Of a DNA stretch of 64,000 bases, positions 2 to 3,406 are shown piece by piece; the first letter of the stretch is position 1; each line of letters opens with the position of its first letter. The stretch comes from a virus. The DNA lies in IMG/VR virus record IMGVR_UViG_3300028569_002586, positions 1 to 64,000 of that record; one strand, 5' to 3'. Made by a program: the position numbers and the translations under genes. Below the pieces are notes generated by a model, which was not told the DNA's origin, made no database searches, and saw only the letters and a list, made by a program, of their open reading frames with translations.

Positions 2-769
2 TTGAGTGGCTTGACTAATTTGGTAGATTTTCGTTGCAAGAACAATCCACTTGGTGGATCAATTCCTAGTTTGAGTGGTTTGAACAATTTGCAAAATTTT
101 CAATGTCAAATAAATTCATTAGTTGGGACCATTCCTGCACTCACAGGTTTTCCAGTGTTAAATACATTTCTGTGCCATGCAAATCAACTCACTGGACCCA
201 TTCCTAGTTTGAATGGCTTGAGTGCCATGCAAGATTTCCGTTGCTGGAGCAATCTGCTCACAAATTATGCAGGTGGTTCTGTTTCCAATACTTTAGGAAA
301 CTTTCAAGCACATAGCAATCAATTGAACCAAAGTGCGGTGGATGCCATATTATCAGCTTTTGATGCCACCACCAGAACCACAGGCACAAGGACTTTGACT
401 CTAAATGCAGGTACTAATGCTGCTCCCAGTTACACAGGAGGAACAACCACCACATCTGCAGGAACCAATTTCTCCAGATCTGGAACTTTGGTAACTGCCA
501 ATGTGACTGGCCATGGTCATCCCAATGGCAGCTTGGTCACCATATCAGGCATCACTGAGACAGCATTTCAAGGCACATTTGTCATAACTGCAGTGAATGC
601 CAATCAATTTCAATACACCACCCAAACATCTGGCACAGTCACAGGTACAGGCACAGCCACCATGAGAAGAACCACAGTAGACTCTGATGGATTCAGATAC
701 TATCAAAATTTGGCTCTAGTTACCAGGTTGGGTGGTTTTCCTTGGGGGGTAAGCATCAATTTCCCATAA
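2..769 (+). CDS. LRR-containing virion/adhesin-like protein, 5'-truncated by window
   Basis: 23-aa LRRs (LxGxIPSLxGLxxLQxFxCxxN), LRR cap (LNQSAVDAILSAF), then a small beta domain (VTANVTGHGHPNGSLVTISG...FVITAVNANQFQY) typical of phage fibre proteins; frame open at the window start. Confidence 0.65.
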   Translation: MSGLTNLVDFRCKNNPLGGSIPSLSGLNNLQNFQCQINSLVGTIPALTGFPVLNTFLCHANQLTGPIPSLNGLSAMQDFRCWSNLLTNYAGGSVSNTLGNFQAHSNQLNQSAVDAILSAFDATTRTTGTRTLTLNAGTNAAPSYTGGTTTTSAGTNFSRSGTLVTANVTGHGHPNGSLVTISGITETAFQGTFVITAVNANQFQYTTQTSGTVTGTGTATMRRTTVDSDGFRYYQNLALVTRLGGFPWGVSINFP

Positions 770-773
770 TGTT

Positions 774-974
774 ATGAACACATACACAAAAGCACTAATT
801 GAAGTCGCCCCTGATCAATGGGTGATGCTTTATGAACAACAATCCAAGATCATAACCATGGAGCCTCAACAAGCTGCAGGGTTTTATAATGCAGTGGATG
901 TCTTAGTTGTTGCAGATACTCATGAAGAGCTGGATCAGTACATTGCAGACCATGCATTGATATACCCAGATTAA
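774..974 (+). CDS. small hypothetical protein, possibly fibre-associated
   Basis: 66-aa ORF starting 4 nt after the LRR gene on the same strand. Confidence 0.5.
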   Translation: MNTYTKALIEVAPDQWVMLYEQQSKIITMEPQQAAGFYNAVDVLVVADTHEELDQYIADHALIYPD

Positions 975-983
975 CAGGTACCT

Positions 984-1001
984 GGAGGCGGCGGGGTTCG
1001 A
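984..1001. repeat. 18-bp direct repeat copy 1 (displaced tmRNA 3' end)
   Basis: ggaggcggcggggttcga identical to 1652-1669; minus strand reads TCGAACCCCGCCGCCTCC followed by A (983). Confidence 0.95.
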
Positions 1002-1037
1002 CAATGCTCAAAACTAATCAGCTCCATAAATATCTAT

Positions 1038-1682
1038 ATGGGTGTGACTTACATAGATTTAACATGCAAAAATTGTAGTGAACTGTTTAAAGTAGAAAAG
1101 TGCTACTATAATCATAGAATTAAAAAAAGTAAACTTGTCATGTTTTGCTCTACAAGATGCAATAATGATTCTAGAATACACAAACGAATAAATAAAAAAT
1201 GTAAGTATTGCAGTAAGCTTTTTACTATTAGAGAAAACCAAGAGAAATATTTTTGCTCTCAAAGCTGCTCAGCAACATTTAATAATTGTAATAAAAAATA
1301 TGGTACAAGAGTATCAAAACTCGAAGTATGGGTAAAAGATAGGCTTACAGAATTATATTCTAAATTGAAAATATTATACAATGAAAAAGAGGCTATTAAT
1401 TCAGAGTTAGATATCTATATCCCAGAGTTAAAACTTGCTTTTGAATTAAACGGTATTTTTCATTATGAGCCAATTCACGGTAAAGATTTGCTTAAAAGAA
1501 TAAAAAACAACGATAATAGAAAATTTCAAGCTTGTTTAGAAAAAAATATTGAACTTTGTATTATAGATACAACATCACAGAAAGTTTTTAAAGAAAAATC
1601 TTCTGAAAAATACTTACAGATAATTAAAAATATTATTAATAAAAAACTTGAGGAGGCGGCGGGGTTCGAACCCGCGTCTTGA
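1038..1682 (+). CDS. putative homing endonuclease (Zn-finger repeats + Vsr/DUF559-like nuclease domain)
   Basis: N-terminal CxxC...FCSxxC repeats; C-terminal SKLE...ELDIYIPELKLAFELNGIFHY...DNRKFQAC; last codons (EEAAGFEPAS) are the antisense of the tmRNA T-arm. Confidence 0.8.
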   Translation: MGVTYIDLTCKNCSELFKVEKCYYNHRIKKSKLVMFCSTRCNNDSRIHKRINKKCKYCSKLFTIRENQEKYFCSQSCSATFNNCNKKYGTRVSKLEVWVKDRLTELYSKLKILYNEKEAINSELDIYIPELKLAFELNGIFHYEPIHGKDLLKRIKNNDNRKFQACLEKNIELCIIDTTSQKVFKEKSSEKYLQIIKNIINKKLEEAAGFEPAS

Positions 1683-2063
1683 ACAATTTCACTCACAAGC
1701 ACTACAAGTTTATCTTAGTTGAATTTTCATAAGGATTAAACTAAACGAAAAGCCCTTACTGATAACAATTTTGTACACATGATCTATTAATTGTTATAAC
1801 CCAGATCATGCGAAGACCAGTTACACGCTCCATGTTACAGGTCTCAATCTACCATGGAACGCTTGAACTAGTTAAACTAACTCAAGGGTGGCTTCTGCAT
1901 CTTCAAAGCCAGCTGCTGCAAGAATTGCATCAGCCTCTTCTAGACTCATGGCCATGTCGAATGTTTCATCGGCATTTATTGTTGTTTTGCTATTGTTAAA
2001 CTGGCATGCCCCAGTACTTGCCCTCGCAAACTCCATCATTCAATCGATTCCAATTACGCCCCC
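1651..2063 (-). ncRNA. ssrA: tmRNA (phage-encoded)
   Basis: 5' GGGGGCGTAATTGGAATCGA pairs with 3' CGCCTCC giving a G3-U70 acceptor stem; T-arm GCGGG-TTCGAAC-CCCGC; helix-2 3' strand TAAACTTGTAG; resume context ATAAAT|GCC; tag ORF 1973->1872 ADETFDMAMSLEEADAILAAAGFEDAEATLELV*; no encoded CCA. Confidence 0.92.
1652..1669. repeat. 18-bp direct repeat copy 2 (3' end of the tmRNA gene)
   Basis: identical to 984-1001. Confidence 0.95.
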
Positions 2064-2086: not shown

Positions 2087-2145
2087 AATATAACTCAATT
2101 ACTTATAAAGTCAACTGTTGATAATAGTAAAATTCACTATAAAAT
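2087..2145. promoter_or_regulatory. divergent sigma70-like promoters (tmRNA on minus strand; GT60 operon on plus strand)
   Basis: minus strand TTGACT-16-TATATT before the tmRNA; plus strand TTGATA-16-TAAAAT ending 7 nt before GTG at 2153. Confidence 0.55.
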
Positions 2146-2152
2146 AATTACA

Positions 2153-3406
2153 GTGAAAATATTCATATCCATTGCTTCCTACCGTGATCCACAACTGCCC
2201 ATAACTTTAAAAAATTGCTTGCAAAATGCCAAGCATCCCGAAAATCTAAGATTTTCTATTTGTTGGCAGAAAGATGAAACAGAAAACTTGGATGAGTTTA
2301 TTAATGACAAGCGGTTTACTATTATTCCTGTGGATTACAGAAAAGGCGAGGGTACATGCTGGGCTAGAAGCTTGATTCAAGAACATTACAAGAAAGAGCA
2401 GTATTACATGCAATTGGACAGTCACCACCGTTTTGAGAAACATTGGGATGAGACCTGCATTGGCATGATCAAAGATTTGCAAAAAGCTGGTTACAAGAAA
2501 CCCTTGCTGACTGCTTATATCCCTAGCTTTGATCCAGACAATGACCCTGCTGCAAGAATACATGTGCCATGGAAAATGAACTTTGATAGGTTTATTCCAG
2601 AAGGTGCAGTATTTTTCTTGCCTGCATCCATAGACAATTTTAAAGAATTGTCTCAGCCTGTGCCTGCAAGGTTTCTCTCAGCTCACTTCATCTTCACTCT
2701 GGGCAAATGGTGCAAAGAAGTGCCTTATGATCCTTATTATTACTTCCATGGTGAGGAGATCAATCTGGCTGTCAGGTCTTATACCTGGGGCTATGACTTG
2801 TTTCACCCTCACAAGGCAGTTGCTTGGCATGAATACACTAGAAAAGGCAGAACCAAGCATTGGGATGACGACAAGGAATGGCACATACGCAACAATGCAT
2901 CACACTTGAGAAACAGAAAACTGTTTGGCATGGATGGTGAAAAGAAGGACGTTGACTTTGGCAAGTATGATTTTGGTACCAAGAGATCATTGGCAGATTA
3001 TGAGAGGTATGCTGGTCTGTCCTTTGCAAAGAGAGCAGTGCAGAGATACACCATTGACAACAACAATCCACCCAATCCTGACAACTTCAAGAGTCAGGCA
3101 GAGTATGAGACCTCATTCTTGAAAATATTCAAGCATTGCATTGATATTGGATTGGCACAAGTGCCTGAAACTGATTATGACTTCTGGTGTGTGGCATTCA
3201 AAGACAAAGATGGCAAAGATGTGTACAGAAAAGATGCTGATAAAGATGAAATTGTGAGAATGAAGAATGATCCAGACAACTACTGCAAAGTGTGGAGAGA
3301 GTTCAATGCAGAAGAGTTGCCTGTGAGCTGGATTGTGTGGCCTCACAGCATAAGCAAAGGCTGGGCAGAGCCCATTACTGGTCAACTCAACAATGTGATA
3401 AGCTAA
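2153..3406 (+). CDS. GT60-family (Skp1/Gnt1-like, Pfam GlcNAc-type) N-acetylglucosaminyltransferase
   Basis: IFISIASYRD, ARSLIQ, MQLDSHHRF (DxH), FHGEEINLAVRSYTWGYDLFHP motifs; start moved from 2006 to GTG 2153 because the upstream part overlaps the tmRNA and its promoter. Confidence 0.85.
   Translation: MKIFISIASYRDPQLPITLKNCLQNAKHPENLRFSICWQKDETENLDEFINDKRFTIIPVDYRKGEGTCWARSLIQEHYKKEQYYMQLDSHHRFEKHWDETCIGMIKDLQKAGYKKPLLTAYIPSFDPDNDPAARIHVPWKMNFDRFIPEGAVFFLPASIDNFKELSQPVPARFLSAHFIFTLGKWCKEVPYDPYYYFHGEEINLAVRSYTWGYDLFHPHKAVAWHEYTRKGRTKHWDDDKEWHIRNNASHLRNRKLFGMDGEKKDVDFGKYDFGTKRSLADYERYAGLSFAKRAVQRYTIDNNNPPNPDNFKSQAEYETSFLKIFKHCIDIGLAQVPETDYDFWCVAFKDKDGKDVYRKDADKDEIVRMKNDPDNYCKVWREFNAEELPVSWIVWPHSISKGWAEPITGQLNNVIS

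What the first reader, a model, noticed from the sequence alone, without database searches (positions are those of the whole stretch)
984..1682. Integrase-less homing endonuclease inserted in the tmRNA 3' end with att-like 18-bp duplication
Seen: identical 18-mers (984-1001, 1652-1669) matching the tmRNA T-loop and acceptor 3' strand flank an AT-rich Zn-finger/Vsr-like endonuclease gene that has its own late promoter. The ORF runs through the repeat and borrows the antisense T-arm as its last codons. The copy completing the gene has discriminator U (CGCCTCC-T); the displaced copy keeps the canonical A (CGCCTCC-A). Known: tmRNA 3' ends are integrase targets, group I introns occur in tmRNA T-loops, and A73 contributes to AlaRS recognition. 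Inference: a minimal selfish element that regenerates its RNA target. Joining ...GGGU| to |UCGAAC... would also fit U|...G| splice geometry and restore A73, although no ribozyme core is evident.
Basis: partly seen in the sequence, partly recalled or inferred. Interest (0 to 1): 0.75.

Follow-up and report, generated by a model that had tools for sequence, protein, structure and literature searches.

The report
Selfish nuclease cassette in phage tmRNA gene
A small selfish nuclease gene has inserted at the end of a phage's tmRNA gene while leaving a spare copy of that end, so the RNA gene stays whole; related nucleases sit the same way behind tRNA genes in many uncultured phages.

Summary
An exact 18-nt repeat (984-1001 and 1652-1669) brackets a 650-bp AT-rich cassette (25.5% GC; flanks 41-43%). 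The cassette holds one gene (1038-1682, +), which converges on an Rfam-confirmed tmRNA gene (1651-2063, -) and ends inside it.

The protein has two treble-clef zinc fingers and a Vsr-like nuclease domain. Its best structural match is the homing endonuclease I-Bth0305I (Z 9.8).

Three related phages have uninterrupted tmRNA genes (70-83% identical), all with A73, and no copy of this gene. The closest ends CGCCTCC-A-GGTTC, much like the displaced copy here.

In 69 non-redundant relatives from viral metagenomes, the gene lies antisense in tRNA arrays and often abuts a tRNA 3' end. Many have an orphan tRNA fragment, running from T54 to CCA, 20-55 nt upstream of the start codon.

So this is an integrase-less homing-endonuclease cassette that rebuilds its RNA target. 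The intron idea is not supported: there is no ribozyme hit, the intervening RNA is unstructured, and the terminal G is not conserved in relatives. The "late promoter" is unproven.

T4 SegB is the known functional precedent. First readers of this scan noted the same layout on other DNA.

The parts
774..974 (+). Flanking phage gene (66 aa, no family). It converges on the original tmRNA 3' end, and its stop lies 9 nt from A73 of the displaced copy.
   Evidence: GC 40.8%, like the phage backbone. A related phage has the same convergent layout: gene stop 5 nt from the tmRNA 3' end.
983..1001 (-). Displaced (distal) copy of the tmRNA 3' part: positions 55-72 plus the canonical discriminator A73, followed by the ancestral-type flank GGTACC.
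   Evidence: Compare the relative's empty site CGCCTCC-A-GGTTC.
1002..1651 (.). The inserted cassette: 650 bp, 25.5% GC, with a single gene.
   Evidence: Absent from the tmRNA loci of related phages.
1038..1682 (+). Homing-endonuclease-type gene (214 aa), antisense to the tmRNA. Its last 32 nt overlap the tmRNA 3' end.
   Evidence: The only copy in the 157-kb record.
1065..1268 (+). Two treble-clef (zf-FCS/TRASH-like) zinc fingers, residues 10-77, with eight invariant Cys. This is the presumed DNA-binding module.
   Evidence: Pfam zf-FCS. Invariant C10, C13, C37, C41, C55, C58, C73, C77. pLDDT 83-96.
1299..1652 (+). Vsr-like nuclease domain, about residues 88-205. Invariant E123, D125, E136, H142 and D159.
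   Evidence: VIA-align: 3r3p_A (I-Bth0305I) Z 9.8, rmsd 3.0, 97 aligned; 3hrl Z 9.8; Vsr 1cw0 Z 9.7. Foldseek. Invariant columns.
1652..1669 (-). Gene-proximal copy of the 18-nt repeat. It completes the T-arm and acceptor stem of the tmRNA and is followed by U73 (base 1651).
1651..2063 (-). tmRNA gene. Acceptor stem GGGGGCG/CGCCTCC with G3:U70, no encoded CCA, discriminator U.
   Evidence: Rfam RF00023, 94.6 bits, full model. 82-83% identical to the uninterrupted tmRNAs of two related phages.
1872..1973 (-). Tag reading frame of the tmRNA: resume codon GCC, 33 residues, stop TAA.
   Evidence: Read. The frame and peptide are conserved in three related phages.
2087..2114 (-). Sigma-70-like promoter match (TTGACT, 16 nt, TATATT) just upstream of the tmRNA 5' end.
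   Evidence: This is a consensus match only and is not enriched over shuffles.

Best explanation
A free-standing homing-endonuclease cassette has inserted at the T-loop/3' end of the tmRNA gene of an uncultured myovirus. The cassette is 650 bp and holds one gene, encoding two zinc fingers plus a Vsr-like nuclease domain.

The insertion is bracketed by two copies of tmRNA positions 55-72.
- The proximal copy completes a full-length tmRNA, now with U73.
- The distal copy is the displaced original 3' end. It keeps A73 and the original downstream flank.

The cassette belongs to a large family found in uncultured phages. Family members sit antisense directly behind tRNA-type genes and leave an orphan tRNA fragment, starting at T54, upstream of their start codon.

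Inferred mechanism, not shown:
1. The nuclease recognises the DNA of the T-arm, which is a natural palindrome, plus neighbouring bases.
2. It breaks cassette-free alleles in or beside the T-loop.
3. Repair copies the cassette from an occupied allele.
4. The duplicated T-loop-to-3' segment supplies homology on both sides of the break and keeps the RNA gene whole. No intron and no integrase are needed.
5. The changed base after position 72 (U73) and the loss of the left half of the T-arm in the distal copy would make both junctions poor substrates.
For: - The repeat, gene overlap, discriminators and GC step were read directly or computed.
- The tmRNA is confirmed.
- The nuclease fold is supported. 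Model pLDDT is 86. Matches are I-Bth0305I Z 9.8, a DUF559-type protein Z 9.8 and Vsr Z 9.7. PHROG homing-endonuclease families match at E down to 1e-12.
- There is presence/absence polymorphism. Related phages G002, G003 and G005 have uninterrupted tmRNAs (87.8-99.9 bits; 70-83% identity), all with A73, and no homologue of the gene. The same holds for the phage of L002, whose T-arm and acceptor are identical to the window's.
- The ancestral flank is visible. The relative ends CGCCTCC-A-GGTTC with a convergent gene stop 5 nt away.
- The family pattern is strong. Among 69 non-redundant loci, 64 have tRNAs within 2.5 kb. There are 330 tRNAs antisense to the gene and 36 in the same sense. An antisense tRNA 3' end lies 0-25 nt from the domain end in 21 loci and 75-100 nt in 11.
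- Flanking repeats of 13-20 nt begin at T54/T55 in L118, L146, L111, L157, L100, L127 and L087.
- A strict orphan T54-to-3'-end signature is found upstream of the start in 15 of 69 loci, against 2.7% of background windows, p 4e-10. Many orphans include CCA.
- In L118 the distal copy carries CCA and a terminator while the proximal copy lacks CCA.
- In L087 and L104 the orphan pairs better with the tRNA 5' end than the proximal copy does.
- There is a precedent. T4 SegB recognises the GGTTCRANTCC T-arm motif and cuts at tRNA 3' ends (PMC2330249). I-Bth0305I is a dimer that reads a pseudopalindrome across its cut site (PMC3239194).
Against: - No cleavage or homing has been shown for any member.
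- No empty allele with exactly the window's flanks was found. The relatives with empty sites have different neighbouring genes.
- The intact proximal T-arm, and every other tRNA gene of a phage, would still carry the presumed core target. Immunity therefore has to rest on flanking bases and is unexplained.
- In several loci the orphan comes from a different tRNA than the one abutting the gene (L116, L134, L149, L127). Simple insertion with duplication is therefore not the whole story.
- No sequence-level match to the EDxHD family was obtained.
Confidence: 0.75

Rival explanations
1. The 668 nt between the repeats form an intron in the tmRNA T-loop. It would be group I-like, cut after GGGU and after the G before the distal UCGAAC. 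Splicing would restore a tmRNA with A73.
For: Group I introns are known at four subsites of the tmRNA T-loop (PMC11915505). The window's junction bases formally allow a -1 U and a terminal G. One family member (L103) lies next to two sub-threshold group I intron hits.
Against: - No Rfam intron family matches 700-2400 on either strand, even at E up to 1.
- The intervening RNA folds worse than its shuffles (z +1.56; 19 of 20 shuffles fold at least as well).
- About 94% of it is antisense coding sequence.
- In relatives the base before the distal copy is A or T, not G.
- The proximal copy already gives a full-length tmRNA match.
Confidence: 0.03
2. The repeat is an attL/attR pair left by an integrase-type element that recombined in the tmRNA T-loop. 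That element has since decayed, or was mobilised in trans, leaving only the nuclease gene.
For: Islands and prophages commonly integrate in tmRNA and tRNA genes, and tmRNA genes are frequent island integration sites (PMC11915505). From my own knowledge, many of them cross over in the T-loop and regenerate the 3' end.
Against: - The element is 650 bp with one ORF and no recombinase domain.
- The same approximately 0.7-0.8 kb nuclease-only unit recurs at tRNAs of at least 15 identities in 69 loci. The nuclease is the only constant companion.
- The target here is a gene in a lytic-type phage genome, not a bacterial chromosome.
Confidence: 0.07
3. The nuclease is not mobile and works for the phage. 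It might cut host or competitor tRNA/tmRNA genes, or process DNA. It would sit beside tRNA genes for expression reasons, and the repeats would be by-products of recombination among tRNA genes.
For: Nuclease genes mark boundaries of genetic exchange between phages (title of PMC10448857, listed; not read). Orphans from a tRNA other than the abutting one show that recombination is messy in these arrays.
Against: - The gene is present or absent among related phages with a precise boundary.
- The cassette is compositionally foreign.
- The orphan boundary is stereotyped at T54 and at a fixed distance from the start codon across unrelated phages.
Confidence: 0.1
4. The 18-nt duplication is a chance or slippage event unrelated to the gene between the copies.
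For: None specific.
Against: An exact 18-mer is far beyond the shuffled maxima of 11-12 nt. Equivalent repeats starting at the same tRNA position flank homologous genes in independent loci.
Confidence: 0.02

Closest known systems
Phage T4 SegB, a free-standing GIY-YIG homing endonuclease in the tRNA gene cluster (PMC2330249)
   Same: It is a free-standing nuclease gene inside a phage tRNA cluster and is absent from related phages. It recognises the conserved T-arm motif GGTTCRANTCC and cuts at tRNA gene 3' ends. The phage's own tRNA genes keep weaker sites.
   Different: It has a different catalytic fold (GIY-YIG, not Vsr-like) and no zinc fingers. The SegB paper never uses a word beginning 'duplicat' (0 occurrences), so I found no duplicated or orphan tRNA 3' segment described there. 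It is not known at a tmRNA gene. The present family has a fixed antisense, abutting layout.
I-Bth0305I and the Vsr-like (EDxHD) homing endonucleases (PMC3239194, PMC2677866)
   Same: It is the best structural match of the catalytic domain, tied with a DUF559-type protein and Vsr (Z 9.8, 97 of 97 residues, 22% identity). It has the same modular build: an N-terminal DNA-binding part and a C-terminal Vsr-like nuclease. Members of that family also occur as free-standing inserts.
   Different: Those proteins use NUMOD/helix-turn-helix modules rather than treble-clef zinc fingers. They sit in group I introns or split protein genes, not at RNA genes. No sequence-level match was found here.
Group I introns in the tmRNA T-loop, some carrying LAGLIDADG endonuclease genes (PMC11915505)
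   Same: They are mobile elements occupying the same few nucleotides of the tmRNA gene while keeping the tmRNA functional.
   Different: They restore the RNA by splicing. Here there is no ribozyme, and the gene is kept whole at the DNA level by a duplicated 3' segment.
Integrase-type genomic islands and prophages at tmRNA/tRNA genes
   Same: They give a direct repeat of the RNA gene's 3' part, and the RNA gene is regenerated by sequence brought in with the element.
   Different: There is no recombinase here. The element is about 0.65 kb, not kilobases. The target is a phage genome.
Small GIY-YIG cassettes behind bacterial tRNA/tmRNA genes, noted earlier in this scan (AI notes, unpublished)
   Same: They show the same logic: a nuclease-only unit behind a tRNA or tmRNA gene with a copy of the RNA's last 15-50 bases beyond it.
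   Different: They use a different nuclease family, have hairpin ends, and are found in bacteria rather than phages. I did not test them here.

Membership tests
Vsr-like / EDxHD homing endonucleases | Vsr-type catalytic fold | tested here: met
   Model pLDDT 86. 3r3p_A Z 9.8, rmsd 3.0, 97 aligned. Vsr 1cw0_A Z 9.7. Foldseek probability 0.99-1.0.
Vsr-like / EDxHD homing endonucleases | Sequence-level family signature (EDxHD motif, profile match) | tested here: inconclusive
   A profile of the family against PDB sequences at E up to 10 lists only zinc-finger proteins, not 3r3p. No Pfam nuclease family matches. Invariant E123, D125, E136, H142 and D159 exist, but I did not map them onto the EDxHD motif.
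Homing endonuclease genes in general | Presence/absence polymorphism at a precise site among related genomes | tested here: met
   Uninterrupted tmRNAs and no homologue of the gene in G002, G003, G005 and G006. The cassette has foreign composition.
Homing endonuclease genes in general | Site-specific cleavage of the cassette-free allele | not testable with these tools
   Needs purified protein and DNA substrates.
Seg-type (GIY-YIG) free-standing endonucleases such as SegB | GIY-YIG catalytic domain | tested here: not met
   No GIY-YIG hit in Pfam, PHROGs or NCBIfam. The fold is Vsr-like.
Seg-type (GIY-YIG) free-standing endonucleases such as SegB | Location in phage tRNA gene clusters, with the T-arm and 3' end as target | tested here: inconclusive
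   Location is met for the family: 64 of 69 loci have tRNAs. The target is only inferred, from junctions at T54.
Group I intron in the tmRNA T-loop | Catalytic core detectable by a covariance model | tested here: not met
   No RF00028 or other intron hit in 700-2400 at E up to 1. The same search type does find introns in L103.
Group I intron in the tmRNA T-loop | -1 U and terminal G at the boundaries | tested here: inconclusive
   This is possible in the window. The terminal G is not kept in homologous cassettes.
Integrase-type island at a tmRNA gene | Tyrosine or serine recombinase encoded in the element | tested here: not met
   The 650-bp cassette holds a single ORF, and it has no recombinase domain.
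Integrase-type island at a tmRNA gene | Direct repeat of the RNA gene's 3' part starting in the T-loop | tested here: met
   The 18-nt repeat covers positions 55-72.
tmRNA (standard one-piece form) | Full-length covariance-model match above the curated cut-off | tested here: met
   94.6 bits against 47, model positions 1-374.
tmRNA (standard one-piece form) | Alanine-type acceptor: G3:U70 and discriminator A73 | tested here: inconclusive
   G3:U70 is present: GGGGGCG pairs with CGCCTCC. The discriminator of the gene-proximal copy is U, whereas four other phage tmRNAs have A. Charging cannot be tested here.

The most novel reading that the evidence does not exclude
A widespread, so far undescribed subfamily of zinc-finger/Vsr-like nucleases colonises structural RNA genes of phages (tRNAs and, here, tmRNA). 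It would cut the universally conserved T-loop DNA and carry or create a spare T-loop-to-3' segment. That is an intron-free and integrase-free way to sit inside an essential RNA gene.

As a side effect it would reshuffle phage tRNA arrays, producing chimeric tRNAs and orphans of lost tRNAs. It could also drive fast compensatory change of T-arms and non-canonical discriminators such as U73, acting as immunity mutations.
Probability: 0.4. Interest if true: 0.75.

Novelty: new variant of a known kind. Interest (0 to 1): 0.62.

Why it matters
**A third route into the tmRNA T-loop.** The tmRNA T-loop is already known as a site for group I introns, and the tmRNA gene as a frequent island integration site. 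This case adds a bare nuclease gene that keeps the RNA gene whole by duplicating its 3' part.

**A convergent solution.** The family-wide pattern suggests that a second nuclease fold, besides GIY-YIG SegB, has settled on the T-arm of tRNA genes as a target that every phage tRNA array offers.

**A possible cause of array turnover.** These elements may be a major cause of gain, loss and chimerism of tRNA genes in phage arrays.

**A natural experiment.** The tmRNA left with U73 tests how much the discriminator matters for alanylation of tmRNA.

**A practical point.** The nuclease would be a compact, modular enzyme for a roughly 20-30 bp RNA-gene target and is worth characterising.

Tried and rejected
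- **Phage isolates, DNA:** a search of 700-2400 against 50,697 phage records found no match.
- **Phage isolates, protein:** a protein search found only partial hits below 45% identity. The two inspected (RaK2, Kuja) lie in large multi-domain 'homing endonucleases' away from tRNA genes.
- **Glycosyltransferase neighbours:** 80 loci sharing the neighbouring glycosyltransferase have no tmRNA-like sequence within 6 kb by nhmmer. Rfam on 10 of them agrees.
- **66-aa neighbour gene:** it has no useful relatives in viral contigs.
- **Window's T-arm/acceptor 24-mer in viral contigs:** one hit only (L002), an uninterrupted tmRNA of an unrelated phage.
- **Empty-site pattern for the L118 cassette:** no match in viral contigs.
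- **Synteny around relatives' tmRNA genes:** no protein of the window's first 12 kb matches there.
- **Orphans against a tRNA library:** BLAST was too insensitive for 20-nt fragments. My first automatic orphan parser picked wrong TTCGAA sites. I replaced it with a stricter signature test and manual reading.
- **Homodimer prediction for the nuclease domain:** no verdict (score 0.00). It counts neither for nor against a dimer.
- **Integrase, transposase or other recombinase in or beside the cassette:** none found.

Full report
**1. What is in the sequence**

The window is the first 64 kb of a 157-kb viral metagenome record. The record is a myovirus, with tail sheath and baseplate wedge genes.

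A tmRNA gene lies on the minus strand. Rfam RF00023 matches 1648-2063 over the whole model at 94.6 bits, against a cut-off of 47. ARAGORN does not call it.

Read on the minus strand:
- The 5' end GGGGGCG pairs with CGCCTCC and gives G3:U70.
- The T-arm is GCGGG-TTCGAAC-CCCGC.
- The base after the acceptor strand is T (U73).
- No CCA is encoded.

The 18-mer at 1652-1669 recurs exactly at 984-1001. On the tmRNA strand this repeat covers positions 55-72. The distal copy is followed by A and then GGTACC.

Between the copies lie 650 bp of 25.5% GC, while the flanks have 41-43%. This stretch holds one ORF, 1038-1682 on the plus strand. The ORF runs 32 nt into the tmRNA 3' end.

**2. The protein**

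- *Zinc fingers.* Pfam finds a zf-FCS zinc finger. In an alignment of 46 homologues eight cysteines are invariant. They form two treble-clef-type fingers.
- *Nuclease residues.* E123, D125, E136, H142 and D159 are also invariant.
- *Family labels.* PHROG families labelled homing or HNH endonuclease match at E down to 1e-12.
- *Fold.* The AlphaFold model has pLDDT 86. Residues about 88-205 align to the catalytic domain of the homing endonuclease I-Bth0305I (3r3p_A: Z 9.8, rmsd 3.0, 97 of 97 residues). They also align to a DUF559-type protein (3hrl, Z 9.8) and to Vsr (1cw0, Z 9.7).
- *Limit.* A sequence profile does not reach these structures. I therefore claim the fold, not proven family membership.
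- *Tail.* The last ten residues, encoded by antisense tmRNA, are not conserved among relatives and are modelled with pLDDT below 50. They are read-through, not a functional borrowing.

**3. It is an insertion**

Phages that share the neighbouring glycosyltransferase at 72-75% identity were searched as whole records.
- Three of the five records searched have a tmRNA gene of 404-409 nt.
- These tmRNAs are 70-83% identical to the window's and carry the same unusual 33-residue tag frame.
- All three are uninterrupted and have A73.
- None of these records holds a homologue of the nuclease. The same holds for the record of L002.
- The window's record has exactly one copy.

The closest relative ends CGCCTCC-A-GGTTC, with a convergent structural gene stopping 5 nt away. 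The window's distal copy ends CGCCTCC-A-GGTACC, with a convergent gene stopping 9 nt away. The distal copy therefore keeps the ancestral context, and the proximal copy adjoins cassette DNA.

I found no empty allele with exactly the window's flanks.

**4. The same architecture is general for this nuclease family**

Viral contigs hold at least 218 relatives. I fetched 84 loci, which reduce to 69 non-redundant ones including the window.

*Position relative to tRNA genes*
- 64 loci have tRNA genes within 2.5 kb.
- 330 tRNAs are antisense to the nuclease gene and 36 are in the same sense.
- An antisense tRNA 3' end lies 0-25 nt from the end of the conserved domain in 21 loci.
- It lies 75-100 nt away in 11 loci.

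The abutting tRNAs have at least 15 different identities. In many loci the ORF ends inside the tRNA, which explains tails such as GFEP, GIEP and GVEP.

*Flanking repeats*

Direct repeats like the window's flank the gene in these loci:

| Locus | Repeat length |
|---|---|
| L118 | 20 nt |
| L146 | 19 nt |
| L111 | 17 nt |
| L157 | 17 nt |
| L100 | 15 nt |
| L087 | 14 nt, one mismatch |
| L127 | 13 nt |

In most of them (L118, L111, L100, L087) the repeat starts at T54 or T55 of the T-loop. L157 and L127 start further in, and L146 extends beyond the loop.

*Orphan fragments*

More generally, an orphan tRNA fragment lies 20-55 nt upstream of the start codon. It starts at T54 and often runs through CCA. 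A strict signature for it is present in 15 of 69 loci, against 2.7% of background windows, p 4e-10.

*Which copy is the original?*
- In L118 the distal copy has CCA and a terminator hairpin, and the proximal copy lacks CCA.
- In L087 the orphan matches the tRNA's 5' acceptor strand perfectly and the proximal copy does not. In L104 it matches better, 6 of 7 pairs against 5. There the gene-proximal 3' end looks imported.
- In L116, L134, L149 and L127 the orphan belongs to a different tRNA than the intact one abutting the gene.
- Related cassettes (L104 and L149) have different orphans and different abutting tRNAs. The orphan therefore belongs to the site, not to the cassette.

**5. Mechanism**

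What is shown:
- a nuclease-only cassette;
- a precise, recurrent junction at T54/T55 on the side of the gene's start;
- a junction at or just after the discriminator on the side of its stop;
- presence/absence among relatives.

What is inferred:
- The T54 junction marks the break site.
- T-arm DNA is an inverted repeat centred on TTCGAA-like loops. That would suit a dimeric Vsr-like enzyme. I-Bth0305I is a homodimer whose specificity lies in a 14-bp pseudopalindrome (TTxG...CxAA) across its cut (PMC3239194).
- After the break, repair from an occupied allele copies the cassette.
- The duplicated T-loop-to-3' segment gives homology on both sides and leaves a complete RNA gene.
- When resection passes a neighbouring tRNA gene, the result is an intact tRNA X, the cassette and an orphan of tRNA Y, as seen in several loci.

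T4 SegB is the experimental precedent for a phage nuclease that reads the T-arm motif and cuts at tRNA 3' ends. T4's own tRNA genes keep weaker SegB sites (PMC2330249). The intact proximal T-arm is therefore not a fatal objection, but immunity remains unexplained here.

The U73 at the cassette junction may be part of that immunity. It may also reduce alanylation. Both ideas are untested.

**6. Rivals**

- *Intron reading.* It fails on four counts.
  - No intron family matches at E up to 1, while the same kind of search finds intron-like hits beside one homologue, L103.
  - The intervening RNA is less stable than its shuffles (z +1.56).
  - It is almost entirely antisense coding sequence.
  - The terminal G is not conserved in homologous cassettes.
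- *Integrase reading.* It fails because there is no recombinase and because the nuclease is the only constant companion of the repeat across tRNA species.
- *A non-mobile role for the nuclease.* This cannot be excluded without experiments, but it fits the polymorphism and foreign composition poorly.

**7. Comparison with what is known**

The 2025 tmRNA database paper lists three gene forms: standard, intron-containing and permuted. It places group I introns at four T-loop subsites, some with LAGLIDADG genes (PMC11915505). A free-standing nuclease cassette with a duplicated 3' part is not among them.

Vsr-like homing endonucleases are described in introns, split inteins and free-standing inserts in protein genes (PMC2677866), not at RNA genes.

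My literature searches found no description of orphan T54-to-CCA fragments beside phage nuclease genes. The held library is incomplete, so this is absence of evidence only.

Within this scan, first readers noted the same layout with related proteins at tRNA genes in other genomes. Follow-up agents described analogous GIY-YIG cassettes in bacteria. These are unchecked AI notes. My family-wide evidence comes from independent loci.

**8. Verdict**

- The main interpretation is supported.
- The intron and late-promoter side notes are not supported.
- I class the finding as a new variant of a known kind. It is a T-arm-directed free-standing homing endonuclease with a new domain build, a target-regenerating duplication and a tmRNA gene as host.

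Noticed in passing
window 1872-1973 (-); L186, L187, L188: The tmRNA tag frame encodes a 33-residue, acidic tag (ADETFDMAMSLEEADAILAAAGFEDAEATLELV). It ends in LELV rather than the usual Ala-Ala. The frame and most residues are conserved in three related phage tmRNAs, while another phage tmRNA (L002) has a normal 14-residue tag ending VAA.
   Followed up: partly
window 1653-1669 vs L187, L188 T-arms: The 17-nt T-arm is among the most divergent stretches between otherwise similar tmRNAs: 7 of 17 differ, which ranks in the top 3 of 395 windows for L187 vs L188. All changes are compensatory. The window's T-arm plus acceptor is identical to that of the unrelated phage tmRNA in L002.
   Followed up: partly
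L157 1116-1520 (-) and 3126-3194 (-): There is a GOLLD RNA match (93 bits, E 5e-23, below the curated cut-off). There is also an HDV-like ribozyme match (37 bits, below cut-off) directly at the 3' end of a nuclease homologue, where other loci have a tRNA.
   Followed up: no
L103 3300-3536 (-) and 3704-3981 (-): Two sub-threshold group I intron matches (E 8e-3 and 4e-6) lie next to a homologue of the nuclease. Some family members may therefore be intron-associated.
   Followed up: no
L094 3100-3180 (-), L111 3160-3290 (-): The sequence abutting the nuclease gene ends in a good T-arm and acceptor strand (with CCA in L094). Upstream of that it is not recognised as a tRNA or tmRNA by ARAGORN or Rfam. 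The two share the stretch AAAGGCTTCCCGGTTCGA. They may be an unrecognised tRNA-like RNA or broken genes.
   Followed up: no
L091 5251-5648 (-); L145 3108-3479 (+): Two other phage contigs carry a tmRNA gene within 2.5 kb of a nuclease homologue, but not in the abutting antisense layout. The L145 homologue looks truncated.
   Followed up: no
window 2-769 (+) and 32136-33938 (-): The window holds a fibre-like protein with plant-type leucine-rich repeats (Pfam LRR_4, weak). It also holds a 599-aa protein with RCC1-like repeats (PHROG 7220, E 2e-52) among the structural genes.
   Followed up: no
window 2156-3406 (+): A GlcNAc-type glycosyltransferase (Pfam PF11397, E 2e-68) lies next to the tmRNA promoter region. 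It has about 200 relatives at 63-75% identity in viral contigs.
   Followed up: partly
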